64,000 nucleotides of DNA from Anolis carolinensis (Eukaryota): assembly GCF_035594765.1 (NCBI RefSeq), contig NC_085847.1, positions 7,316,001 to 7,380,000 on the forward strand, written 5' to 3'. A program made the position numbers and the translations under genes. The notes below the pieces were generated by a model. The model did not search any database and had not been told where the DNA came from. It saw only the letters and a program-made list of their open reading frames with translations. Every line of letters starts with the position of its first letter. Position 1 is the first letter of the stretch. Of the stretch, positions 5,296-64,000 are shown piece by piece.

Positions 5296-5615
5296 CTAAG
5301 TCAAAGACTCTGGCAGAAACCAGTACAGGTGGTCCCAGTGGTGATGGGCACACTGAGTGCCGTGCCAAAAGATCTCAGCTGGCATTTGGAAACAATAGAC
5401 ATTGATAAAATTATGATCTGCCAACTGCAAAAGGCCACCCTACTGGGATCTGCGCGCATCATCCGAAAATACATCACACAGTCCTAAACACTTGGGAAGT
5501 GTTTGACTTGTGATTTTGTGATATGAAATCAAGTATGTCTATCTTGTTTGCCGTGTCATACAATAAAATAATAATAATATCTGGTAAGTGGAGAAAATAA
5601 TTCCTTAATAATTGC

Positions 5616-7757: not shown

Positions 7758-7807
<50 letters not shown>

Positions 7808-7968
7808 CAAAATTACGATCTGCCAACTGCAAAAGGCCACCCTACTGGGATCTGCACGCATCATCCGAAAATACATCACACAGTCCTAGACGCTTGGGAA
7901 GTGTTTGACTTGTGATTTTGTGATATGAAATCCAGCATGTCTATCTTGTTTGCTGTGTCATACAATAA

Positions 7969-14779: not shown

Positions 14780-15142
14780 GGGCCCTGTTTTCCCCAACTT
14801 TCGGCCCTCCAGCTGTTTCGGACTTCATTTCCCAGAATCCCTTCTCATTGGCTCCAACAGCCGAGGCTTCTGGGAGTGGAAGTCCCAAACACTGGAGGGA
14901 GCCGAAGTTTGGGACCCTCCGAGCGGAGAGGCCTGGTCTCGTCTTCGGAGCCTGAGCTAGAGTTGGGGGAAGGGCCTGAAGGGACTTGGCGGGCTTTTTC
15001 GCCTCCGCGGTCCCTCCTTTCTGGCCTCTTTCTCCGCCTCCTTCAGTCGCTGGAGCCAGAGCGAGTGGGACGCCGGCTGAGAGGGAGGAGGCAGCGGCTT
15101 CCTCCATGAGGGCCCGGCGGGACTGCCAAGGGCTTCCTCAGC
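14780..15142 (+). promoter_or_regulatory. TPCN1 CpG-rich promoter / 5' UTR
   Basis: CpG-dense region directly upstream of the TPCN1 ATG at 15143. Confidence 0.65.
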
Positions 15143-18100
15143 ATGGCGGCCAGCCCCGAAGACGACGACGTGCCCCTCATTCTGACCCTGGAAGAGAGCA
15201 GGAGCCCCGCGGCCCTCCGTGAAAGTAAGCCCGGCCTCAGCCTCCCACCTCCCCATCTCTCCTCCTCTCCCCTCCCCGACGGCCATTGGAGCATCCTCTC
15301 CAGGAATTCCCCAGCTTCCAGGGATTTGGGGGACTCCAACTCCCAGAAGCCTCAGCTGCTGTGGCCAATCAGCAGGCATTCTGGGAGATGGAGTCCAAAA
15401 CTCCAGTTGGGGGGATTCCACCAAAGGTGTCCAAATTGCCCCTTCTGGGAGGCTGAGAGAGTGGCCCATGAACTTCCATGTTTCATCTTTGGTGTGAATA
15501 TTAACATGCCATTTTAGTTTGACGTTGGGCTGGATTTTTAATTTTTGGTTCAATTTCCATATTTAATTTTATTTTGACATTGGGCTGGAGCTTTAATTTT
15601 CATTTCAATACAGTAGAGTCTCACTTATCCAACATAAACGGGCCGGCAGAACCTTGGATAAGTGAATATCTTGGATAATAAGGAGGGATTAAGGAAAAGC
15701 CTATTAAACATCCAATTAGGTTATGATTTTACAAATTAAGCGCCAAAACATCATGTTAGACAACAAATTTGACAGAAAAAGTAGTTCAATACGCAGTAAT
15801 GCTATGTAGTAATTACTGTATTGACAAATTTAGCACCAAAATATCACGATTTATTGAAAACATTGACTACAAAATTGCATTGGATAATCCAGAACGTTGG
15901 ATAAGCAAATGTTGGATAAGTGAGACTCTACTGTATTTCATTTTAATTTGACCTTCAGGCTCTAACATGTGACTGGATGCATCGACGTTGTGGAATGGAT
16001 GCTGTTTGACACCGCTTGTGCTGCCCTGGCTTAGTGCAATTGGATCCTGGGAGTTATAACTTGGATCATCAAGACCTTGTCAAACTACAACTCCCATGAT
16101 CCCATAGCATTGAGCCTGGACAGCTCAAGTGGTGCTAAACTGCATTCATTCAACTGTAGTTACAAAAACTTTGTTTCGGGACCCAAAGTATTAAAACATG
16201 GCCTTTAAAATGACTTTCAAGCTATTTATGTATTTATTTGCTACATTAATATCCCGCTCTTCTCACCCCGGAGGGGACTCAGAGCGGCTTACAAATAAAA
16301 TGTACATACAATATATTATTAGCATAGCACAATATAAGCATTAAATTACTATATTGTACTATATCATTATATGGTAATATTATTAGTAATATTATATTTA
16401 ATATACAATTAATATTATATTATATTATTGTTAGTATAATATTGTATTACATTATAATATCATTACAATATATATTTATAAATTATTGTATATTATATGT
16501 GTGTGTGTATGTATGTAAAATTATGCTTAAGATGTCTATGAAACATCAATGTGTTTTGTGTTTAGACTTGGGTCCACTTCTAAGAGATCTCATTACGCAT
16601 ATGCAAATATGCATTACGTAATATGCAAATATCGAAACAAAATGCTGACCAGGAGTCCCCACAAAAGTGCTATCGGCAGTCATTTTGGTGTCACCTGTAC
16701 AGCCCACACCCTCCACTGGAGACCTATGGAATGAATAGAATTTGAGTCTGTTTTGTTTTGTCTTGGCATTGTTTTGTCTGTTGAAAAGCCAAATTCTTTC
16801 ATACAGGAGTGGAAAGCATCCTTTGTTGATGACACATCCTCAAGGGTTAGTCTCTTGCAGAAAAAATGTTCACCTGGAGTCCTGTGTCCCCTTGAAACCA
16901 CTGGGTTCCAGCCAACCAGCCAGCAGCCTCTGTTTTACTAAACTTGCTGCAACATCTTAGTTGTTTTCCTCCACCGCTTCATGCTGCTTGGGGGAGTTTT
17001 ACACCTTTCTGTGTCTCCTGGGAGTACCTTTTCCTGCTTTATTGACATCAGGAGGGCAAAACCCAGGCAAATCAAAGAGACTCTTCAGGGTAGCAGTCAG
17101 TGCCTTGGCCAGCTGGCTAAAACTTAGCAGTGTCTTTCCCTGTTTGCCATCTGCCTCACCTCCGATAGTGTTGAAACTCAGGGCAGGGCCTCTAATGATC
17201 TTATTTTTATGGTGGCTATAGCAAATCCCAACTATTGCATGAGTCAAAATGAGAATGGAGTTTGTAGTGTGTGTTTACTATCTAGTTAAAGGAAACAAAC
17301 AAAAGAGTTTGCAAGGTACTGAAATGTGTGAATGATTCATTGATGTCCTTGCTGACAACATTTAGGAGACAAGCCTTGTCCGTCTCATACTCCACTAACT
17401 TTGGGGGAAAATATCAAGGCAACAGTGATCCAGAACTCTCGCCTGCTTTCCCACAGCACACAGGATCCCTGTTATGAGATGCAACTAACAAGAAGACACG
17501 CACTAAAGAGGAACAGGTTATGGTTTCTTTATTACACATTGGCCTAAATTCTGTTTTTAGTCCTAACCCGTGGAGTAGATCCATTCCATCTATGGGATTT
17601 GACTCACTAGTCAAGAATTGATTGAATAGGACTACTCTTGTGGGGATTAACCACGGGATGCCCACTTCTGTGTATTAATTGGCTTACCCAGCGCCAGGCT
17701 ATTTGTGTTACCAGCAACAGTTTGAGAAAGAACCAGTATTAACTGTGCAATTGTCAATATTTTCTATGTTCAGCATCCCTATGAACTCTCTGTGTTTGTG
17801 TTGATATACATATTACAGAAATCTAGATGTCAGTTCATACAACTGGGGGAAAAGTTGGGCTGTGATGAATTTTGGAGCCTTTCAGGTGCTACAGGTTGTT
17901 TGTTTTCAGCATTTTTGTAGTACTGCAAGGTCTACTGGAAGAGAGGAAACTGGGTGATCTTGAGCAGGTTATTTTCTCTCGGCTTCAGAGGAAGATCATG
18001 GCACACCACACACTGTAAAGTGATTGTGTAATGCAGCGTTGATTGAAAATAGTGCTTGTATGCTTTTAGTTCTATGGGTCTGTTGCCCCATGTGCTCTGC

Positions 18101-50629: not shown

Positions 50630-52785
50630 TTCAAAGACTATGGCAGAAACCAGTGCAGGTGGTCCCGGTGGTGATCGGCACATTGGGTGCCGTGCCAAAA
50701 GATCTCAGCTGGCATTTGGAAACAGTAGACATTGACAAAATCATGATCTGCCAACTGCAAAAGGCCACCCTACTGGGATCTGCAGCATCATCCGAAAATA
50801 CATCACACAGTCCTAGACACTTGGGAAGTGTTCGACTTGTGGTTTTGTGATACGAAATCCAGCATATCTATCCTGTTTGCTGTGTCATACAATGTAGTTG
50901 TATCAATAATAATAATAATAAAAAACTTTATTTATACCCCGCCACCATCTCCCCGTGGGGACTCGGGGCGGCTTACATGGGGCAGAGGCCCAAACAACAT
51001 AGGACAAAATATAGGCAACATAATGCAAATCACACTATAAAAAGAAAAAAATAGTAATACAATATATCAATTAAAACAAAAATACAGGATAAAAAATTGC
51101 ATTTAAAACACATAAATGGTAAAATCGTAATAAATACAGGATAGATTATTTAAAAAAACCCTCTGGGGCTGATTAATTAAGCACTTTTTGATCCATGTTC
51201 TCCTGGATAAGAATTCTGCTCCCCATTTTCCTTCTGTCCCTCCAAACTGTAGTTGCTTAAAACTTCAGTTGGGCATGTAAAAAAATACAGTTTAGAAAAA
51301 GGGAAGGGAAAGTGATCAACGGAAGGTGGACACAGCGCATAGAAGAGGGAACCCTTTCCAGGGTCTCCCAAAACTTCTGGAGTTTGACTTACAATTTCTC
51401 CGCGGTGACACCAAGGATCACAAAGAGGTAAAGGAGCCACAGCGCCTGCAGGAAACCAAAGGGAAGAGTCTCACGGCACTTCTTCTTTGGAAGGGTGAAA
51501 TCCAGAACCAATTCCCTGAACGTGAGTCACCATGGCACTGCCTCATGCGTTGCAACGGCTTCTCTCAAAGATGTGGTGCTTGGTGCGCCACAAATGGCTT
51601 GATTCTTGGCCCGACTACAAATCCGTTCTGCCCGCCACGCTTTTAGCCCTGAAGTGGCTGGTCCAAACCTATCGTTCCCAAGCTCTGCTTATTCTCCACT
51701 CTATCGTCCTGAGATGCTGAGACACCAAGTCCTTTGAGAAAAGCCCACCCAAAGGAGAACGTCCTCCTGCTGCTCCTGCCCCCCGGCATCTTTCATGCCA
51801 GACCTTCAGAGATCCCATCACAAGCCAAGCAGAAAGAAAAGGGGTCCTCCCCCCCCTTCCCAACCCATGGCTTTGGCCCTTACATAAAGGGTGATGGCCA
51901 GAGGCTGCAGGGAAGCTGGGAAGACGCAGAAGACGCCGTTGAGGTAGTTGAGGAACCCGCCTTCCATCTGACAGTCCGGGTTGGTCTTGATGAAGGAGCA
52001 GCGCCCAGAGCTGTTCTGCTTCTTCACCTCTCTGCACTAGAATAGAGAGAGAGGGAAAGTAAACAGAGAGGGGACATTACTCCAAAAGGGAATGTAAAGG
52101 ATGGGCGGAAAGGAAGAGAGAGAGAAGAAAGGAGAGGAAGGGGAGTGAAAGAAAAGAGCAAAAAGAAGAGGGAGGGAAAGAAGGGATTTTTTATCGTGAG
52201 AACATACTGCAAGTCGCTTCTGGTGTGAGAGAATTGGCCGTCTACAGAGACTTTGCTCTGATGTGTTACCATCCTGCTGGGAGGCTTCTCTCATGTCCCT
52301 GCATGGGAAGCTAGAGCTGACAGGCAGGAGCTCACCCCGTCTTGCGGATTCGAACCACCAACCAACCCATTGTGCCACTGCGGCTCCAAGGAAGGGATTA
52401 GAAGACCACAAAGAGAGAAAGAGCAAAGGGAAGAGTGAAGGAGGGAAGGAAAGAACCAAGGAAGGGGTTCCAATACTAGAAAAAAGACACCAGATGATCC
52501 CAATGGCCTTCCATCCTATATTTATGAAGGACGTTTCCAAGAGTAGCAACCAAACTAACTTGCCCCACAGACAACGACAAGCTTCTCCCGTTCAGGAAGG
52601 AGAGAGGAACTTCCCCTACTTACATCCACGTGTGGACCCGGGTCCAGGACCCTGATGGCCTGCCCTCTGCTGTCCAAGGGAAGAGGCACCGAGCCCTCGG
52701 CATCCTGAGATCCCAAAGGAGATCCTCGAGCGTTGGCCTCTCCAAAGAGCATCCAGGCCACAGCAACGACCCAGACAGTTTGCAT
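39072..52785 (-). CDS. SLC8B1: Mitochondrial Na+/Li+/Ca2+ exchanger NCLX, 15 coding exons, ~586 aa
   Basis: Exons 52624-52785, 51884-52036, 51393-51445, 50493-50550, 49100-49205, 48160-48327, 47937-48044, 46561-46620, 46187-46317, 45036-45177, 44668-44789, 42686-42839, 40743-40823, 40078-40142, 39072-39269 (1761 nt, in frame). Alpha-1 repeat GVTFLAFGNGAPDVFS and alpha-2 repeat GLTLLAWGNSIGD. Confidence 0.96.
39490..39752 (-). mobile_element. R4/Dong LINE 3' fragment in (TAA)n
   Basis: Reverse complement of the 5301-5578 sequence, with TTA repeats on both sides. Confidence 0.8.
40143..40742 (-). other. SLC8B1: U12-type (minor spliceosome) GT-AG intron of SLC8B1
   Basis: 5' site A|GTATCCTTGG; branch-like TCCTGAAC at 40160-40153, ~11 nt before CAG; no long polypyrimidine tract. 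Confidence 0.85.
40441..40680 (+). mobile_element. tRNA-headed SINE with L2-type tail (internally deleted), preceded by a CR1-like 3' remnant (40382-40440)
   Basis: GGGGCTGTGGCGCAG...AGTTCGAGGCC head; tail GCCCTGAGTCCCCTTCGGGGTGAGAAAGAAGGGCGG(TAAA)n. Confidence 0.65.
41419..41726. mobile_element. Tc1/mariner-type MITE (runs into gap)
   Basis: TIR CAGTAGAGTCTCACTTATCCAA; internal sequence inverted relative to the 14370 copy. Confidence 0.85.
41727..41902. other. Assembly gap
   Basis: Run of N. Confidence 1.
42159..42613 (-). mobile_element. Non-autonomous Helitron
   Basis: 5' TC...hairpin-CTAG 3', A|T site; near-identical to 2083-2558. Confidence 0.85.
43346..43668. mobile_element. Tc1/mariner-type MITE between two tandem LINE 3' ends (43200-43340, 43700-43835)
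   Basis: TIRs and TA TSD; the flanking ~135-bp duplicated tail reads ...GTGAGCCGCCCCGAGTCCC...GGAGATGGTGG...ATAAATAAAGTTTATT. Confidence 0.8.
43962..44490 (-). mobile_element. Tandem array of three R4/Dong LINE 3' ends
   Basis: Copies at ~43963-44054, 44072-44164 and 44190-44490, separated by TTA repeats. The longest encodes KNYQDLKIELQRLWQKPVQVVPVVMGTLG. Confidence 0.8.
45580..46157. mobile_element. Tc2/pogo-like DNA transposon remnant with an internal 37-bp tandem repeat
   Basis: Terminus CCGTACATACTCGAGTATAAGCCGA; internal repeat TAATAATAGAGAAAAATAATAAATGTAATAATACCAA about 4 times (45990-46120); related copy at 55578-55955. Confidence 0.65.
46670..47001 (-). mobile_element. Non-autonomous Helitron (short variant)
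   Basis: Same termini as the other copies, with a different shorter interior. Confidence 0.85.
47006..47610. mobile_element. Two adjacent Tc1/mariner-type MITEs (47006-47085 internally deleted; 47101-47610 rearranged)
   Basis: TIR pairs CAGTAGAGTCTC...GAGACTCTACTG. Confidence 0.85.
48430..48900 (+). mobile_element. SINE with L2-type 3' tail
   Basis: Tail CCCTGAGTCCCCTTTGGGGTGAGAAAGAAGGGCGGAATATAAAT(TAAA)n; body shared with 40441-40680. Confidence 0.65.
49282..49790 (-). mobile_element. Non-autonomous Helitron with captured MITE fragment
   Basis: TC...CTAG termini; the interior 49378-49525 resembles the 4832-4978 MITE family. Confidence 0.85.
49839..50271 (+). mobile_element. SPIN (Space Invader) hAT non-autonomous element
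   Basis: 5' CAGCGTTTCTCAACCTGGGGGTCG; 3' ...GTTATGAAGTAGCAACAAAAATAATTTTATGGTTGGGG...AACTGTATTAAGGGGTCGCAGCATTAGGAAGGCTGAGA, matching SPIN termini as I recall them; degenerate 8-bp TSD CACTAAAG/CTCTGAAG. Confidence 0.8.
50631..50893 (+). mobile_element. R4/Dong LINE 3' fragment in (TAA)n
   Basis: Same sequence family as 5301-5578. Confidence 0.8.
52200..52388 (-). mobile_element. tRNA-derived SINE (Sauria-SINE-related)
   Basis: Minus-strand head GGAGCCGCAGTGGCACAATGGG...GGTTCGAATCCGCAAGACGGGGTGAGCTCC. Confidence 0.65.
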
Positions 52786-55269
52786 GATGCCAAATCTAAA
52801 AGGAACCACTGCCTACTTCAAACTTCTGCACATCACGGCATCATCTGTCTCGGAAGCAAGCGGAGAAAAGGGAGACGAAGTCAAGCCCTGGGCTCTAACC
52901 ACCAGGATATTTCACAAATGCAAACCGTTGGTGGAAATGGAGAAGTGAAGCTTGCCTGGCAGAAAGGTGGAAAAGGCTCCTTCCCTTTGTCGAGAGCCGG
53001 AGCTGCGGAGAAGCAGAAGGGAAAAAGTCACTTTCGGTTGGATCCCGCGGCTAAAAGTAGGAAGCAGCCTGGCTACGAACGCCAGCAATTGATCTGAATC
53101 TGTGAAGGCCGGGGACGCAATAACGCAAGACATTTGTCACCTCGAGGAAAGAAAAGGCGCAGGTACAGAAGAAGGGCTTTCCACTTGAGGCTGACCTTTG
53201 GAGGTCTAGACAAGGAGGAAACCTGAACATGGGCAACCCTTGGCCGCTCTGCCACAAAAGTCCTGACAGAGGTCACCAAGCCAATCGACTCGAAAGCCAA
53301 ACACAGACCATTTCTAGAGGACTTCTTTTTTCAAAAAAAAGTCATTATCATCATCATCATCATTTAATTACTTATTAATCGCCCTCCATCCAAGATGCTC
53401 TAGGCGATTTACAAGATAAAATTGTAAAGGATAAAAATATATACATACAAATATTGATAAAATTAACCTAGATTAAAAGCTCTAGTAAAGAGCCAGGTCT
53501 TGAGTCCAAACCATTATCAGCTGGTTTGTTTGCCCAGCCTTCCAACTTCGAAGATAATAAACCCAGCGTTCATTCTTTCTTAGAGGGAGTCCGTCCCTCA
53601 TCCTTCCTCAACTTGGACTTCTTAGAAAATAACAGAAAAGGGATAGACAGGTTTATTTCTCAGTGTTATCATTTTGCGTGTATTCATTCATAGAGCTGCT
53701 CCATCCAGCTTTGGCATCAGCCTGCGGTTGAAAAATGCATTATCGCCTTTAATGTGTATTACAAATACATGGATTAGACACTCCGAAAGCACCTTTCCGC
53801 AGAGTAAAATATGCCTTGGACTCTAAGAGGCCCCCATCAATTAAATTATTTAGAGATTTAACCAAGTGTATTTCCTATAAAAGACATCATATACTTTTGA
53901 GACCCGAATGTCAAAATCTAAGAATGTTTGAATGCGGACAGAGGCAGAAAGTCACTTTTCCCACCTTGTAAGCCTTCCCATTCAATCGCAAGCAGGATCG
54001 AGGAGCAAAGGGCATATTTATACAATAAAAGGTCCACTTGACGGGATCGAAAATCCCTCAAAGGGATTTCCCTTGGCCTCGTTCAATCTTTAACCTCAAT
54101 ATCCTGCTGTCGGTAAGCTGAGAAACTATCACTTTTTATTATGCTTAGAATGAGACTTTGAAGACGCGGCTGATTTCAGTGGCCGGGAATCATACATCTG
54201 TGACTTTAAATTACTTTTAATTCAATTGGATTTTAAGAGCACAATTTGTTCTGGGGTGTTTTTAAATATTTGACGTTTTGAATTTTGCTGCAAACAGTCT
54301 CAAGCCTTAGTTTCAGGGAAAGAAGCAGGAAACAGACAGATCAATACTGCAGGTAAGTTCCATATCTGATCATAAATTACCATCCAGGTCCTTTGAAAAC
54401 CTGGAAGTAATAACTCATAGGATTGTGGGAACGACATTCATCTTTCACCTGTCGTTCTATTTATTTTTGGTTGATTTAATTGTCAAACTTCTGCATTAGC
54501 TGCTGTTTGAATGGTTTGAGGCTTTACCTTCTATTGGGTTCTGAAAACAATAAGCGATGGACCCTGAAACGGAGGGATTTCTTTTTAAACTGCCAGCTTT
54601 ACCTGGCTATTCTTAACCTCCTGTGAGTCAGAAATCCCTTCAGATGTATTCCAAATCTCCCAGAGATCCACCAGCAGCTCCTGATCATGAGCTTAGAAGA
54701 GTTATTTTGGGATGGGAGCTCCCAGAACCCACTGGAAGCATAGCCATGCGAGATTCTGGAAGCTGTAGTCCATCAAACCAAATGTGTCCACGTTCCAGAT
54801 CTACCTTTTAGTTCCAAAATAAAATGGTTCAAAGAGGAAAACAAGAGCAGAAGAACGCTTTGCAATTTGTAAACACCCATTGCTCTCTCTACAGAGACAC
54901 TGAAAAAGACCATTCGAACTATCATTCCCGGCTCAGCAGCCAATGACTCAATAACGGCGGCTCCCAGCAGGCCAAAAGGATGCACATTACCTACTTATGC
55001 ACCGATGGAATGAGAAAAGTGGTTGCCCATTAGCTCCTAATAGCTTTCGGAGGCATGCGGGTCGGGAAAGGAGACGCCAACATACCTGGATAGACTGACT
55101 GACAAGGATCTGGGTAGGACAGAGGAAAGCGAGACGAAATTACAACTATTATAGCTCAAGATATCCCCATCTTGCTCAGCAGAGCCGTCCGTACCAATAT
55201 GGGGCAAGATCTTGGGAGCAGTAGTCCCCCAAAGCGACTTTCTCATGCTTTGGTTGCCCAGCAACATGC

Positions 55270-57137: not shown

Positions 57138-57145
57138 CCGTAGAG

Positions 57146-57864
57146 TCTCACTTATCCAACATAAATGGGCCGGCAGAACGTTGGATAAGTGAAAATGTTG
57201 GATAATAAAAAGGGATTAAAGAAAAGCCTATTACACATCAAATTACGTTATGATTTTACAAATTAAGCACCAAAACATCATGCTTTCAACAGAAAAAGCA
57301 GTTCAATACATGGTAACATTATGTAGTAATTACTGTATTTATGACTTTTGCACCAAAACATTGCAATGTTTTGAAAACATTGACTACAAAAACATTGACT
57401 ACTAAAAGGCAAACTACATCGGATAATACAGAATGTTGGATAAGCGGAGGTTGGATAAGTGTATCTATCACAATCTGTCCAAGGAAGACTATATTATTAT
57501 TGTTGTTGTATAAATAAATAGAATAGGAATAATGATGACAATAATAATAATACAGTAGGAGTCTCGCTTATCCAACGTAAAGGGGCTAGCAGAACGTTGG
57601 ATAAGCGAATATGTTGGATAATAAGGAGAGATTAAGGAAAAGCCTATTAGGTTATGATTTTACAAATTAAGCACCAAAACATCATGTTATACAACAAATT
57701 TGACAGGAAAAGTAGTTCAATATGCAGTAATGCTATGTAGTAATTATTGTATTTACGAATTTAGCACCAAAATATCACGATATATTAAAAACATTGACTA
57801 CCAAAATGCGTTGGATAATCCAGAACGTTGGATAAGCGAGGCTTGGATAAGTGAGACTCTACTG
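57146..57864. mobile_element. Two Tc1/mariner-type MITEs (57146-57460 remainder of the interrupted copy; 57553-57864)
   Basis: TCTCACTTATCCAA... internal family sequence; TIR GAGACTCTACTG at 57853-57864. Confidence 0.8.
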
Positions 57865-57929: not shown

Positions 57930-58255
57930 ATGTGTTGTCGAAGGCTTTCATGGTCGGAATCACTGGGTTGCTGTGAGTTTTCCGGGCTGTCTGGCAAATG
58001 TTCCAGAAGCATTCCCTCCTGACGTTTCGCCCACATCTATGGCAGGCATCCTCAGAGGTTGTGAGGTCTGTTGGAAACTATGCAAGTGGGATTTGATTCC
58101 CCCAGGCAGGAATCAGCCAGACCTTGAAGATTCAATGCTAATCAAGGTGGACAATCGAAACATTAACACCCGCCTCCAAGAGACAATGGTTCTTTCTCCC
58201 ACATTGAACATTCCACAGATATCTAAATCCACTTGCCTAGTTTCCAACAAACCTG
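57930..58255 (-). mobile_element. Penelope-like element terminal-repeat fragment
   Basis: GGGTTGCTGTGAGTTTTCCGGGCTG...CCTGACGTTTCGCCCACATCTATGGCAGGCATCCTCAGAGG; contains a hammerhead motif typical of PLEs. Confidence 0.7.
58018..58058 (-). ncRNA. Minimal type-I hammerhead ribozyme motif (PLE-type)
   Basis: CCT-CTGAGGA-T-GCCTGC-CATAGAT-GTGGGC-GAAA-CG-TC-AGG: core CUGANGA/GAAA, stem II, palindromic ACGU stem III, GUC cleavage triplet, and CCU/AGG stem I. Confidence 0.75.
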
Positions 58256-58379
58256 GGAGGTGTCTTTAGGCAGAAAATGTGAAAGAGTTTGTCAAACTAC
58301 AAACTCTCAGCACTCCATGGCACTGTAAACATGCCTTCTCAGTTTTGGACTCCAACTCCCAGAAGCCTCCGCTTCCTGG

Positions 58380-58810
58380 GCCAAAGCGGCCGGGAAATCA
58401 GCCTGAGAGGCCTTGAGCCTGTCACTCAAGTCTAGCCCAAACTTTGGCGTTTGGGACTTCAACTCCCAGAATTCCCGCTCGTTGGCCGAGGCGGCCGAGG
58501 TTTCTGGGAGTTGAAGTCCAACACCCCTCAGCATCTCTGATCTACTCTCGCAAGCGGTAAACAACGCTGCTCCCGAGGGATCGTTCCCGGACGTGCTCTT
58601 GCCTCGGGAGGAGGAACTCACCATTGACGGAGAAAGCGACAACTCCCACAACTGGACTCACGCTCTCGCCTCCCGTTGCCTTTAGCCGGTCCTTAGCCCC
58701 ACCCCTGCTCTGGCTCCGCCCCTTTCCCCCCTCAGCGGCGCCTTAAAGGGACCCCGCCGCGGAGCTCCTTGCCCCGCCCCTTTTTGCCCCTCTCGGGACC
58801 CCGTAGCTGC
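58380..58810 (-). promoter_or_regulatory. SLC8B1: CpG island; probable SLC8B1 promoter and non-coding exon 1
   Basis: GC boxes; minus-strand donors GAGC|GTGAGT (58662/58661) and AATG|GTGAGT (58622/58621). The ATG exon at 52785 has an in-frame stop upstream and an acceptor at ~52845, implying an upstream exon. Confidence 0.6.
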
Positions 58811-58950
58811 CCTGGTTTCCAACTTTTTGGAGCACTGTAGAATGAATGCATTCTGACCCCACTTTTGCCTCCCCTGACTCAAGGCTAGGGCATTGCTAAA
58901 CTGTAGATCCTAGGATCCAATACCACAGAGCACTTAATAATAATAATATT

Positions 58951-59148
58951 GGGTTGCTGTGAGTTTTCATGTTCCAGAAGCATTCTCTCCTGACGTTTCG
59001 CCCACATCTATGGCAGGCATCCTCAGAGGTTGTGTGGACTGTTGGCAAGTGGAGTTTATATCCGTGTGGAATGATATCCAGGGTGGGAGAAAGAAAGAAC
59101 TCTTGTCTGTTGGAGGCAAGTGGAAATGTTGCAATTGGCCACCTTGAT
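58951..59148 (-). mobile_element. Penelope-like terminal-repeat fragment with a second hammerhead motif (58989-59029)
   Basis: Hammerhead segment identical to 58018-58058. Confidence 0.7.
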
Positions 59149-59176
59149 TAATAATAATAATAATAATAATAGTAAT

Positions 59177-59303
59177 AATAGTAATTAATAATAATAATAC
59201 ATCACACAGTCCTAGACACTTGGGAAGTGTTCGACTTGTGATTTTGTGATACGAAATCCAGCATATAGATCTCGCTTGCTGTGACATACTATGTCTTTGT
59301 GTC

Positions 59304-59305
<2 letters not shown>
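59177..59305 (+). mobile_element. R4/Dong LINE 3' end in (TAA)n
   Basis: TACATCACACAGTCCTAGACACTTGGGAAG... followed by a long TAA tract. Confidence 0.75.
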
Positions 59306-59361
<56 letters not shown>

Positions 59362-60397
59362 GTAAGTTTTATTTATGTCTCGCCCCCTCTCCCCAAAGGG
59401 ATTCAGGATGGTTTACAAAAAAGTAAATGAATATAATAAATAATATAACATAGAAAGAGATCAATTTCAGACCTACATTGAACAGCCTTGCAGCTTGCTG
59501 CCTGAGGGAATCCTTTATTGGGACGTATTAGCTGGCCCTGGTTATTTCCTATCTGGAATTTCCCTGTTTTCTGAGTGTTGTTCTTTGTTTACTGTCCTTT
59601 TTTTTAAAATACTGACCTTGAGCTGTGGCACTTAAGAGGGGCCAAAGTGCATTAATTCAACAGTGTAGATGCACCCCGGGAGGCCTTCCATCATGTTATG
59701 GCGATATCTGATCGCCAAGGCTTTGCTGCGGATAAATGTGCAACATGCAACAAACCCATGGTTTGTCGCTTCCTTGATTTCAGCCTAACCACAGCCCCAC
59801 TTCAAAGAGCTGCCGCCCCAGACCCAGTTGTCTGGAAAAGGATTTGCAATGCCCTGGGGTCACTTTGTGGAGGGCAAGTTGGTCGTGGGAGCGTCGCTCC
59901 CCTGCATTCCCATCATCGGATGGAATGAACCAACGCCGGGTTTCAAAACGGATTTTGAAACCATGAACCAGCTTTGGGAATTCGGCGAGCGTTTCTCAAA
60001 TGCTGTCAAGGTGTATTTTGTCACAAGAATCCTCTTTCAGAGTGCCAAACGTCCCACTTGGGCTCAAAGCGATGCTCCAATGAACCCTGGCATTCTGCAC
60101 ATGCTTCAGTGTACTGTTGTCATGTGCTTTTGAATTAAAACTCCTGGACAGAGGAAAACCCTTGTGAACTCTGTTAAGCCCAAACTTTGAATTAAGTGCT
60201 GGCCCCTCCAAGGACATCTCCTTATCTGGAGGTGTGGATGGCCATCTGTCGGTAGGGATTGGATGGTGTCTTCCTGCCTGCCATAAGTCAAGGTGAGGAT
60301 AGCTGTGCCAGGCTAGGCCATACTTTGGATTAAGTGTTGGTCCCTCTAAGGACATCTCCTTATTTGGAGGTGTGTAAACATAGGCTGGATGATGATG

Positions 60398-60435
<38 letters not shown>

Positions 60436-60620
60436 TTGGAAACAATAGACATTGACAAAATTACGATCTGTCAACTGCAAAAGGCCACCTGACTGGGATC
60501 TGCACGCATCATCCGAAAATACATCACACAGTCCTAGACACTTGTGTTCGACTTGTGATTTTGTGATACGAAATCCAGCATATCTATCTTGTTTGATGTG
60601 TCATACAATAAAATAAGAAT
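60436..60620 (+). mobile_element. R4/Dong LINE 3' fragment in (TAA)n
   Basis: Same family; further small ends on the minus strand at 62331-62402 and 62514-62570. Confidence 0.75.
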
Positions 60621-62570
60621 AATACTTTATTTTTATACCCTGCCTCCATCTCTCCGAGGGGACTCGGGGCAGCTTACATGGGGCCAAGCCCAGATAAAAC
60701 AAACAAACCAAAATAAAATATCAGAAAATACAAAACACGAAAATTCAAATGAACATTGTAAAATATAAAAATAACAAACATCATAACAAACATGGATTTG
60801 GCACCCAAGTAAAGAGGATAAAAACGAACTGGGTAAGGTGCAACGAGTGAATATCATCATAATCATCATCATCATTTAATTACTTATTAATCGCCCTCCA
60901 TCCAAGATGCTCTAGGCGATTTACAAGATAAAATAAAATGTAATATTGAATATTGTAAACAAGATGGTTAAAAAGATGCTACCGTCAACAGGATGGCCAT
61001 CTGTCGAGAGGGATTGGATGGTGTCTCCCTACCTGGTAAAAGGGGTCAAACTGAATGATCCCTGGGGGTCTCTTCTAACTCTAAGATTCAATGAAAGGCC
61101 TGTTTTGACAAGGATCAGACAGGAGCGTGGCTTCTGACCGATGTCCCCGTGCGGCTTCCAAAGGACAGCTGAACCCGAGGACCTTGCTAGTGGGGACTTT
61201 TCCTTGGTGGCGTTTTGTAGTTTGCAAAAGCTCGGTGCAGCAAAACAGCTCCAGCTTTTCCCATCGGCGCCACACCTTGGCAGTGTGAACCGGACGGCCT
61301 CTTCTTGGAGCATGTGATCCCAGAGACGAGCAATCGAACAAGGTGCCGTTTTGACCTTTTAAGCTCTTAAGGCTCTTATATCCCAAGGCAGGTCATAGGG
61401 CCTGGCAAATAAATAAATAAAATACCGCCAAAGCCCTTTAAAAAAAAATACTGGGTTGCATAGACTCTTAGAGCTGGAAGAGACCCCCAAAGGCCACCCG
61501 GTCCAACCCCCAGGAAGACACAATCAAAGTCCTCCCGACAGATGGCCAGCTTCCTTCTTAGGGTGTGTTTGAAAGCATTTGCCTTCAAGGCGACAATATC
61601 AATCCTTTGCTTTTAGGGGCAGCCCAAAGGAAGAGAAGGGATTCTCCTCAAAATATTTCCCCAAGGAAAACTGGGATCCATGTGGTCAAGCGGATCAAGA
61701 CTTTTTGTTTTGGGTTTAGAAAGGCATAGAGAGAAGGAACATGTTTCACAAAATATTCAGAGGTCAGGAAAACAAAATGACCCAACCAAAAGTATTGCAA
61801 GTCCTGTTTGGGAGGCCGAGGGATCGGTCACAAGACACTGGGAAGGGCACTCGCTTTGCTGGCATTATTTTTCCTCCTTCAAAAAAAAAAAAAAAAAGAG
61901 ATTAGTAAGCACATTCCTGCAGCAAAAGGAGAAAGGCGAGGACTTGCAAGAGTTCGCCCCTTCAAAAAATACAATCCAAAAAAACCCTAGCAGGGCAAAA
62001 GAGCCTTTGTCAGAAATTCAGAAATCCAAGAGATTCCCAAATCTGAATCCTGGGCGGCCGAGATAGTGAGACTTTAGCTTTCTGATATTTCAGCTTTCTT
62101 TTATGGGAAAAATTATTTAAAATATTGCACAGAATTATATACGGGAGATAAGATAGATGGGCTCTCTAAAATATACATTAATTATGTTGCTTAGATTTGG
62201 TTCCTACCTCCAAGCTCTTTCACGACGTACCTGCAAATATTCCGAAATATGAAAATTCCAAAAATCCAAAAGACTTCTGGTCCCAAACATGTCACATAAT
62301 GAATACTGTATCATTATTATTATTATTATTATTGACACAGCAACATAGTATGACACAGCAAACAAGATAGATATGCTGGATTTTGTATCACAAAATCACA
62401 AATTATTATAATTATTATAATTATAATTATAATTATTATTATTATTATTACCCTGCTTTCTTGGCTGGATCAAGACCCAAATGGCTCACAAGCTTAAACA
62501 TATAATTATTATTATTGACACAACAACATAGTATGACACAGCAAACAAGATAGATATGCTGGATTTCATG

Positions 62571-62623
<53 letters not shown>

Positions 62624-62734
62624 TGGGCCTGTTTAGAAGTTGTTCAGGGCCCCTTTGGGGTGGCCCAGGGCCTGTTTTGCTGACCCTGATTGTTTCTGTT
62701 CTAGAATTCCCCTAACACTAGCTAATACCTCCCA

Positions 62735-62993
62735 GGATTCCCCCAGGCAGGAAGCAGCCAGACTTTGAAGCTGAAAGGCCATTCAATGCTAATCAAGCTG
62801 ACCAATGGCAACATCCACACTTGCCGCCAACAGACAAGAGTTCTTTCACCCACCTTGGATATATAAACCTCACTTGCTTAGTTTCCAACGGACCTTACAA
62901 TCTCTGAAGATGCCTGCCATGGATGAGGGTGAAACTTCAGGAGAGAATGCTTCTGGAACATGGCCTGACCTCCCGGAAAACTCACAGCAACCC
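62735..62993 (+). mobile_element. Penelope-like fragment with degenerate hammerhead (62901-62941)
   Basis: TCT-CTGAAGA-TGCCTGCCATGGATGAGGGT-GAAAC-TTC-AGG; stems II and III are partly broken. Confidence 0.65.
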
Positions 62994-63345
62994 AATATAT
63001 TGTATTATTATTAGTATTATATTGATTAAAACAACCTGTTAAAATCGCCTTCAACAAATGAGTCCAACAGCCCCCTGAGGGGGAAATTTTAGTTTACTGT
63101 TATTGTGCTGCTTCCACTTTAAAGGCCGTGTACTTCTGGGGCTTGTAGTTCAGAGGCTCAAGAGTTTCGGGGCTGAAGAGGCTCAAGAAGGATGTTAGGA
63201 CTTCAAATCCCGGCATTCAGTGCGGTGTTGCTTTAGGCGCCTTGGAGTGCGTTGGGTGATCAGAGCTCCCTCTAGAGGCCACCCCGGCGTAGCGCCGCAG
63301 GGCACGGCTCAGTTGTGCGAGCGGCTGGGCGCTCTTCCTCGGCCC

Positions 63346-63563
63346 ATGGCTCCCGCTTGGCTGCTCCGCTTCTTCGGCCTCGCTTTGCTTTTGGCCCGTT
63401 CTCCAGCCCGCCGCCCGCCTCCCTTCCCGGATCCGGCTGCGGTGCCGACCCGGAGCTGCTCGGTGGTGCTGGAGCCCGGCTCGGCCGCCTTGAAGCTCGT
63501 CAACGGCTGGGCCCCCGGCGCCGTCGCTTGGGCCAACCTCACCGAAGGCATCCGGCAGAACGG
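63346..63563 (+). CDS. PLBD2: Phospholipase B domain containing 2, exon 1 (gene continues beyond window)
   Basis: Signal-peptide-like MAPAWLLRFFGLALLLA..., then RSCSVVLE...AVAWANLTEGIRQNG, matching PLBD2 AVAWANLTNAIRETG. Donor GG|GTAAG; synteny after SLC8B1. Confidence 0.9.
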
Positions 63564-64000
63564 GTAAGCAAGGCGGGCAGGCGCCGGCCAGCCCTCCAGG
63601 CGCTCTGGACTCCCACTCCCAGAATCCTCAGCTGCTGCGGCCAATGAGTAGGCATTCTGGGAGATGAAGTCCCAAACAGCTGGCACTCAGAGTTGGGGAA
63701 ATCTTGCCCTTTGAGCTGCGGTTTGGGGAGGAGAAGGCTCAAGACCTTGGGGAACTACAACTCCTAGGATCCTAGAAGACTGAGCCATGACAATATAGTG
63801 TCAGACTGCCTTCATCCAACAGGATAGGAGGAGAAGGTACCTTTCCATGCAGTTGTAATGCTAAAGGGTTATCAAAACTATCATGTCTAATTCTGGATAC
63901 TCTGATCATAGGAATGACTAGATATTTTGGATTTGGGCTCTGCAGTTTCCCAAGTATTATGGACTTGAGCCCTATATGTTTCCAAGTATTTTGAATTTGG

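What the first reader, a model, noticed from the sequence alone, without database searches (positions are those of the whole stretch)
58018..59029. Pair of identical minimal hammerhead ribozymes bracketing the SLC8B1 promoter on its sense strand
Seen: two identical motifs (58018-58058 and 58989-59029, minus strand) with a CUGAGGA/GAAA core, a 6-bp stem II, a one-pair stem III with palindromic ACGU and a GUC site. They lie ~1 kb apart on either side of the CpG island. Established: Penelope-like elements carry such minimal hammerheads, which are thought to cleave as dimers through the palindromic stem III. Inference: the first copy would be in SLC8B1 intron 1. Any transcript starting further upstream (for example divergent from the PLBD2 promoter) would contain both, allowing intramolecular dimer cleavage. 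That could act as an RNA-level insulator or a TSS-choice filter, or excise a ~970-nt RNA that might circularise.
Basis: partly seen in the sequence, partly recalled or inferred. Interest (0 to 1): 0.7.

Follow-up and report, generated by a model that had tools for sequence, protein, structure and literature searches.

The report
Two anole Poseidon retrotransposon hammerhead relics
The two matching hammerhead motifs are real but are the already published ribozyme of a common lizard jumping gene, left in two separate broken insertions that flank the likely SLC8B1 promoter and are probably inert.

Summary
The two 41-nt motifs are present, identical and on the minus strand at the stated coordinates, either side of a CpG island. 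Read by eye, both match letter for letter the hammerhead of Poseidon_Ac, the anole Penelope-like element studied in vitro in 2024 (PMC11167929). There it cut only with the element's protein, and no RNA-seq reads ended at the cut site. Each motif sits in its own truncated, decaying insertion. Copy A ends at the published reverse-transcription start (+118) and has an inverted 5' part. Copy B lacks that 34-nt tail, has 8- and 15-nt deletions, and was split by about 325 nt of later insertions. A third copy, 4 kb away, has a decayed ribozyme. The identity therefore follows from the family consensus, not from a matched pair. The proposed dimer is topologically possible but strongly disfavoured across the 930-nt spacer in folding models. 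A transcript spanning both copies, and the start site, could not be tested. Some doubt remains: neither copy has a change in the ribozyme (p 0.004 to 0.16, depending on the flanks counted), and the three copies cluster. Verdict: known element, probably inert here, low interest.

The parts
57931..58269 (-). Copy A: 5'-truncated Poseidon-type Penelope-like pseudo-LTR/ORF-start fragment with an internal inverted segment and the 34-nt tail, followed by an ATT/GTT repeat
   Evidence: compared by eye with the template printed in PMC11167929: 11 substitutions and 1 insertion over +1..+118
58018..58058 (-). Minimal hammerhead of copy A; predicted cut 58021/58020; element start codon at 58049
57931..57963 (-). 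Tail of copy A, ending in the AC-rich stretch at +112..+119 (+111..+118 after the 1-nt insertion), the published reverse-transcription start
58095..58260 (+). Inverted upstream pseudo-LTR segment of copy A
   Evidence: (I1, I10)
58361..58860 (.). CpG-island-like likely SLC8B1 promoter with GC boxes (58780, 58722) and candidate exon-1 splice donor at 58621
   Evidence: promoter role inferred, not shown by RNA
58950..59150 (-). Copy B, near part: pseudo-LTR/ORF-start fragment without tail, with 8-nt and 15-nt deletions
58989..59029 (-). Minimal hammerhead of copy B; predicted cut 58992/58991; element start codon at 59020
59151..59475 (.). About 325 nt of later insertions that split copy B: ATT arrays, a piece of a repeat with 10 other matches in the window, and another repeat end
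59476..59533 (-). Copy B, far part; colinear with the near part apart from one missing base relative to copy C (may extend to about 59590, read by eye)
   Evidence: local score 58; best of 500 shuffles 33; junction read
62720..62994 (+). Copy C: third fragment of the family, no tail; hammerhead at 62901-62941 has 6 private changes of 41, palindrome and stem II broken
52624..52795 (-). Likely first coding exon of SLC8B1 (ATG at 52785; 54 codons, in phase with the next exon)
   Evidence: read; inferred
51884..52036 (-). SLC8B1/NCLX coding exon, matches NCLX residues 53-103
   Evidence: Na_Ca_ex on 3 of 7 translations
63346..63564 (+). PLBD2 first coding exon, in a second CpG-island-like stretch (63101-63700)

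Best explanation
The two motifs are the standard hammerhead of a Poseidon-type Penelope-like retrotransposon, carried in two separate truncated insertions that flank the likely SLC8B1 promoter and are probably inert. Mechanism of origin (inferred from the published in vitro work): the element's protein nicks AT-rich DNA at ATT and starts reverse transcription at one of two sites just inside its ORF, so even the shortest copies contain the pseudo-LTR end with the hammerhead. Copy A began at +118 (tail present) and has an inverted 5' part. Copy B began about 34 nt earlier and was later deleted in two places and split by other repeats. The motifs are identical because both still equal the family consensus. 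Copy A is likely transcribed in intron 1 and spliced out. It likely does not cut, because a minimal hammerhead cannot close stem III alone, its partner lies upstream of the likely start site, and both copies stop short of the +172 that the protein needed in the insertion assay.
For: [quoted passage not shown] The 41-mer equals the Poseidon_Ac template at 41 of 41 positions, and B matches it for 66 consecutive bases (by eye). A ends at the published +111..+118 site and B and C end 34 nt earlier, the 30-40-nt tail. ATT-rich sequence follows 3 of 3 copies. A has an inverted 5' part, typical of these elements. B is deleted and split. C shows the motif decaying (6 private changes of 41). In the direct flanks the lack of change in the ribozyme is not significant (p 0.15-0.16). 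Dimer fold disfavoured: ACGU-ACGU pairing about 1e-16 to 1e-17 in the native context against 1e-2 to 1e-4 with spacers cut to 20-400 nt. From papers: no cleavage without PAc protein, no RNA-seq reads at the cut site (PMC11167929); monomers inactive and dimers weak (PMC4209133); 16,208 polymorphic Penelope-clade insertions in 28 anoles (PMC7561263). With 20,000-100,000 copies assumed, 0.6-15 of 20,000 promoters would be bracketed this way by chance (copy number, genome size and promoter count are assumptions).
Against: Neither A nor B has any change in the 41-mer. If the upstream pseudo-LTR, including A's inverted part, is counted as flank, this is significant (p 0.004 for both, 0.045 for A alone, 0.13 for B alone). 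That test is confounded by source-subfamily differences and rests on three copies. B is old enough to have been split by later insertions yet keeps a perfect motif with both CpGs. All 3 of 3 motif-bearing copies in the window fall within 5 kb (p about 0.017 under uniform placement, post hoc). At 5,000 copies the chance expectation of a bracketed promoter is only 0.04. The folding model penalises hammerhead folds in general (17 kcal/mol even with a 12-nt linker), so its absolute values mean little. The RNA needed for protein-assisted cleavage, as opposed to insertion, was not mapped in the text I read. No RNA data were laid here.
Confidence: 0.85

Rival explanations
1. One reading: a transcript starting upstream of 59029 (from the PLBD2 promoter, or from copy B's own pseudo-LTR promoter) holds both motifs. 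They fold into a double hammerhead through the ACGU palindromes and cut, filtering upstream starts or releasing a 971-nt RNA that might circularise.
For: Both motifs are intact, on the same strand and flank the CpG island. The double-hammerhead pairing is nested and so possible in one RNA. No poly(A) hexamer lies between the copies on the minus strand. Zero changes in both motifs (p 0.004-0.16). Fly Penelope has an internal promoter (PMC2377424, abstract only).
Against: Dimer fold is about 40 kcal/mol above the ensemble, and stem II of copy A forms with probability only about 0.3 in the long RNA. Purpose-built dimers cut weakly. The same motif needed PAc protein. Four poly(A) hexamers lie between the PLBD2 promoter and copy B (no background estimate, and they are common in AT-rich DNA). 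The copies are independent and decaying, and B's pseudo-LTR is split. Self-ligation of related type I hammerheads was 1-3% (PMC7229834 passages).
Confidence: 0.04
2. Copy A alone is cut occasionally in SLC8B1 intron 1, helped in trans by Poseidon protein or by pairing with another Poseidon RNA in cells where the element is expressed. This slightly lowers or delays NCLX mRNA, as an unselected side effect shared by many sense-oriented intronic copies.
For: Copy A is sense to SLC8B1 and downstream of the candidate exon-1 donor (inferred). It keeps the AC-rich region to +118. PAc is expressed and its protein activates this motif.
Against: Copy A lacks +119..+172, needed in the insertion assay. It has an insertion and substitutions downstream of the cut site. 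No reads at the cut site were found for the family. Intronic cuts need not block splicing (recalled, not from a call).
Confidence: 0.07
3. The fragments act at DNA level (weak alternative promoter in copy B, or edges of the CpG island), and the ribozyme is incidental.
For: The CpG-island-like stretch ends about 130-270 nt from each copy. Penelope pseudo-LTRs hold promoters. The three copies cluster between the two promoters.
Against: No direct evidence. Both pseudo-LTRs are rearranged (inverted in A, split in B). Clustering also fits insertion preference for ATT-rich or open DNA (open-DNA part inferred).
Confidence: 0.04

Closest known systems
PAc / Poseidon_Ac Penelope-like element of Anolis carolinensis and its protein-assisted hammerhead (Frangieh et al. 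2024, PMC11167929)
   Same: 41-nt motif identical by eye; start codon at stem II; cut 26 nt after it; 3' ends at the two reverse-transcription starts; ATT targets.
   Different: Truncated, no RT or GIY-YIG ORF. All three copies share six differences from the consensus at +67..+85 and a different upstream pseudo-LTR, so they likely come from a sibling subfamily. Single copies, not tandem.
Minimal hammerheads of metazoan Penelope-like elements (Cervera and De la Pena 2014, PMC4209133)
   Same: No loop 3, palindromic 15.2-16.2, extra base between 9 and 10.1, G10.1-C11.1, long helix II; mostly dispersed single motifs from truncated elements.
   Different: Helix I is 3 bp here (4-5 bp in the Schistosoma example). 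The two motifs do not flank an element ORF but a host promoter.
Non-LTR retrozymes (PMC7229834; bioRxiv 10.64898/2026.07.22.740005)
   Same: Type I hammerheads that work as dimers in vertebrates and can release unit RNAs that circularise.
   Different: Retrozymes are tandem repeats of 150-450 bp with canonical motifs. Here the 930-nt spacer is host promoter sequence and the copies are independent.
Conserved amniote hammerheads linked to mRNA biogenesis (mentioned in PMC7229834; the names HH9/HH10 are recalled)
   Same: Hammerhead motif in a likely host intron, sense orientation.
   Different: Those are few and highly conserved. These are copies of a mobile family, with no Rfam match; cross-species conservation was not tested.

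Membership tests
Poseidon-type Penelope-like element (truncated copy) | Hammerhead at the pseudo-LTR/ORF junction, start codon at stem II, cut 26 nt after it | tested here: met
   3 of 3 copies
Poseidon-type Penelope-like element (truncated copy) | Sequence similarity to Poseidon_Ac | tested here: met
   by eye: motif 41 of 41; copy A 107 of 118 plus one insertion; no alignment program was run on the paper's sequence
Poseidon-type Penelope-like element (truncated copy) | 3' end at one of two reverse-transcription starts, optional 30-40-nt tail | tested here: met
   A ends at +118/119; B and C end 34 nt earlier. The paper's text gives a number only for the +111-118 site
Poseidon-type Penelope-like element (truncated copy) | Insertion at ATT-rich DNA; 5' truncation, often with an inverted part | tested here: met
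Autonomous Penelope-like element | ORF with RT and GIY-YIG nuclease between pseudo-LTRs | tested here: not met
   stops within 40 codons of the start in 3 of 3 copies; the spacer is the host CpG island
Minimal hammerhead (Cervera and De la Pena 2014) | Conserved core, extra base after A9, G10.1-C11.1, palindromic 15.2-16.2, long helix II | tested here: met
Minimal hammerhead (Cervera and De la Pena 2014) | Short helix I (4-5 bp in the described example) | tested here: inconclusive
   3 bp only; the paper's descriptor figure was not seen
Minimal hammerhead (Cervera and De la Pena 2014) | Self-cleavage as a dimer or with a helper | not testable with these tools
   published for the same motif only with PAc protein
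Rfam hammerhead families | Match at gathering score | tested here: not met
   0 matches in 64,000 bases
Non-LTR retrozyme | Tandem repeat with at least two consecutive hammerhead-bearing units | tested here: not met
   no tandem unit; the copies have different ends and unrelated flanks
Non-LTR retrozyme | Abundant linear and circular unit RNAs | not tested
   no reads were laid
Co-opted host ribozyme | Conserved at the orthologous site across species, beyond neighbouring sequence | tested here: inconclusive
   within-window test p 0.004-0.16; no orthologous loci were available

The most novel reading that the evidence does not exclude
Two independent Poseidon insertions were co-opted as a pair. 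RNA that starts upstream of the SLC8B1 CpG island carries both minimal hammerheads and is cut, probably only where Poseidon protein is present, while RNA from the proper start carries one and is spared. That would be a ribozyme-based start-site filter switched by a retrotransposon protein.
Probability: 0.04. Interest if true: 0.7.

Novelty: already known. Interest (0 to 1): 0.12.

Why it matters
As found, it matters little: it is a local instance of a described element whose ribozyme has already been assayed. If the pair did filter upstream transcripts, it would be a host regulatory use of a Penelope minimal hammerhead, which none of my seven paper searches showed, and it would touch the mitochondrial Na+/Ca2+ exchanger. 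The more useful open question is genome-wide: whether intact motifs are depleted from sense-oriented intronic copies, which would show that these ribozymes cut host RNA in vivo.

Tried and rejected
Rfam scan of the whole window: 0 matches. No whole genome is held for this window, so copy number, orientation bias and orthologous sites could not be counted. Run search on 58280-58930: 24 runs listed, all contigs of one organism, no RNA holder listed; this is not evidence on expression, and small shares were not used. No reads were laid, so the start site, upstream exons and empty-site alleles remain open. Folding of the 71-nt motif regions gave z -1.2 and -1.4, uninformative for a minimal hammerhead. 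Pfam found nothing on 4 of 7 translations; PLBD2 and NCLX were then confirmed against PDB sequences. One search failed on a frame slip and was corrected. Local duplication of A to B was rejected: different ends and unrelated flanks. One element with two pseudo-LTRs was rejected: the spacer is the host CpG island with no ORF. Earlier-findings look-ups by sequence, by place and by the longer word set returned nothing. Supplements: files 1-3 of PMC11167929 gave only figure labels and run lists, and its consensus file (.gbk) and figures could not be read; supplements of PMC4209133 were not opened and those of the bioRxiv preprint are closed. They may hold anole copy counts or the ribozyme drawing.

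Full report
Observation. A 37-nt core occurs exactly twice in the window, at 58019-58055 and 58990-59026 on the minus strand, with no further match at up to three mismatches and none in 100 shuffles. The full 41-mers agree at 41 of 41 positions. They show the hammerhead core, an extra U after A9, a 6-bp stem II with two G-U pairs, palindromic ACGU, a GUC site and a 3-bp stem I. Rfam gives no match. A CpG-island-like stretch at 58361-58860 lies between them, with GC boxes at 58780 and 58722 and a candidate donor at 58621. The genes are SLC8B1/NCLX on the minus strand and PLBD2 on the plus strand. That exon 1 ends at 58622, which puts copy A in intron 1 and copy B upstream of the start, is inferred from sequence.

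What the motifs belong to. Frangieh et al. 2024 (PMC11167929; parts 1-3 of 4 read) studied the anole element PAc (Poseidon_Ac). Its ORF starts at stem II of a hammerhead and the cut lies 26 nt after the start codon; the same holds in all three window copies. Compared by eye with the template printed in their Methods, the 41-mer is identical, copy B matches for 66 consecutive bases, and copy A differs at 11 of 118 positions plus one insertion. All three copies share six differences from that consensus, so they likely derive from a sibling subfamily. This also suggests an Anolis genome (inference). The two motifs are identical to each other because both equal the family consensus.

Anatomy of the insertions. 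Copy A (57931-58269) ends at +118, the published reverse-transcription start, and runs into an ATT repeat. Its upstream pseudo-LTR is inverted (58095-58260), a typical structure (PMC8557442 passages). Copy B ends 34 nt earlier, without the tail, and has deletions of 8 and 15 nt. Its upstream part continues at 59476-59533 (score 58, best of 500 shuffles 33) and joins the near part at 59150 with one base missing relative to copy C (read). About 325 nt of other repeats were therefore inserted into it later. Copy C (62720-62994, plus strand) has six private changes in its 41-mer, which break the palindrome. Ends and flanks differ, so these are independent insertions, not a duplication and not the two repeats of one element.

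Would they cut? In PMC11167929 this motif showed no cleavage without PAc protein, core mutants did not affect insertion, and no RNA-seq reads began or ended at the cut site. Insertion needed the first 172 nt of the ORF; A has 118 and B about 85 less a 15-nt deletion. The RNA needed for assisted cleavage is not given in the text I read. In PMC4209133 (parts 1-2 of 4) a single minimal hammerhead was inactive, and dimers and trimers cut weakly. My folding test shows that the double hammerhead is nested and so possible in one RNA. It lies 40-43 kcal/mol above the ensemble for the native 1151 nt, 22-28 with the spacer cut to 20-400 nt, and 17-18 with a 12-nt linker. The model lacks magnesium, tertiary contacts and protein and penalises every version, so only the trend is meaningful: the native spacer makes the dimer much less likely.

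Would a transcript hold both? Not tested: no reads were laid, and no genome is held. By sequence, RNA from the PLBD2 promoter must run about 4.3 kb and pass four poly(A) hexamers (60880, 60631, 59519, 59373) to reach copy B (no background estimate). Copy B's own pseudo-LTR is a nearer possible start, since fly Penelope has an internal promoter (PMC2377424, abstract only), but it is split.

Chance and selection. Penelope-clade insertions are abundant in anoles: 16,208 polymorphic sites in 28 animals (PMC7561263, section 6 and passages). With 5,000, 20,000, 50,000 or 100,000 motif-bearing copies assumed, 0.04, 0.6, 3.8 or 15 of 20,000 promoters would be bracketed within 1 kb on each side in sense orientation (inputs assumed). 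Against a plain neutral reading: neither A nor B has a change in the motif. This is not significant against the direct flanks (p 0.15-0.16) but is when the upstream pseudo-LTR is included (p 0.004 both, 0.045 A, 0.13 B). The upstream region also differs strongly between these copies and the published consensus, so source differences can inflate that count. Low methylation beside the CpG island could spare the two CpGs (inference). All three copies lie within 5 kb (p about 0.017 if uniform, post hoc), which fits either insertion preference or retention.

Comparison with known kinds. The motifs meet the tested features of Penelope minimal hammerheads and the fragments meet those of truncated Poseidon copies. 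They fail the tests for an autonomous element and for a retrozyme (tandem units; PMC7229834 passages; bioRxiv 10.64898/2026.07.22.740005 part 1 of 5 and passages). My searches (most hits seen as listings only) showed no paper on this locus or on promoter-flanking use of such motifs. The library lacks most subscription papers. Earlier scan notes report the same kind of motif in at least 14 genomes; these are unchecked AI notes and are not used as support.

Verdict. Observation confirmed; class of element correctly named; paired regulatory role not supported, though not excluded. Best explanation: two independent, probably inert relics (0.85). Novelty: already known. Interest 0.12.

Noticed in passing
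window 62720-62994 (+): Third fragment of the same family with a decayed hammerhead, about 350 nt upstream of the PLBD2 start codon; all three copies in the window lie between the two promoters.
   Followed up: yes
window 58095-58260 and 58064-58097: Copy A's inverted part carries 14 private changes in 100 columns against 1 in 104 in its direct part, and about 34 nt are present on both sides of the inversion. It may be two events of different age or source.
   Followed up: partly
window 5390-5564, 7807-7966, 39495-39668, 43961-44366, 50720-50901, 59195-59300, 60440-60609, 62343-62573: Eleven pieces of one repeat, mostly beside ATT/AAT arrays; resembles the 3' end of an R4/Dong-type LINE (label recalled, Pfam gave no hit on one translation).
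   Followed up: partly
window 58342-58527, 63606-63677, 14815-14892, 15331-15404: Related hairpins with ACTxCAACTCCCAG-like arms inside both CpG-island-like promoters and elsewhere; the arm resembles the ZNF143/THAP11 promoter motif (recalled).
   Followed up: no
window 57140-57862: Two adjacent copies of an inverted-repeat element with about seven more matches across the window; MITE-like.
   Followed up: no
window 59761-60080 and 61081-61400: Two further CpG-rich patches between the SLC8B1 and PLBD2 promoters; possible extra start sites or enhancers.
   Followed up: no
window 62853 (-): A donor-like site on the SLC8B1 strand inside copy C, about 500 nt from the PLBD2 start codon; could serve a divergent upstream exon, untested.
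   Followed up: no
whole window: SLC8B1 and PLBD2 lie in a gene block that I recall as X-linked in the green anole (homology to chicken chromosome 15); recalled, not checked.
   Followed up: no
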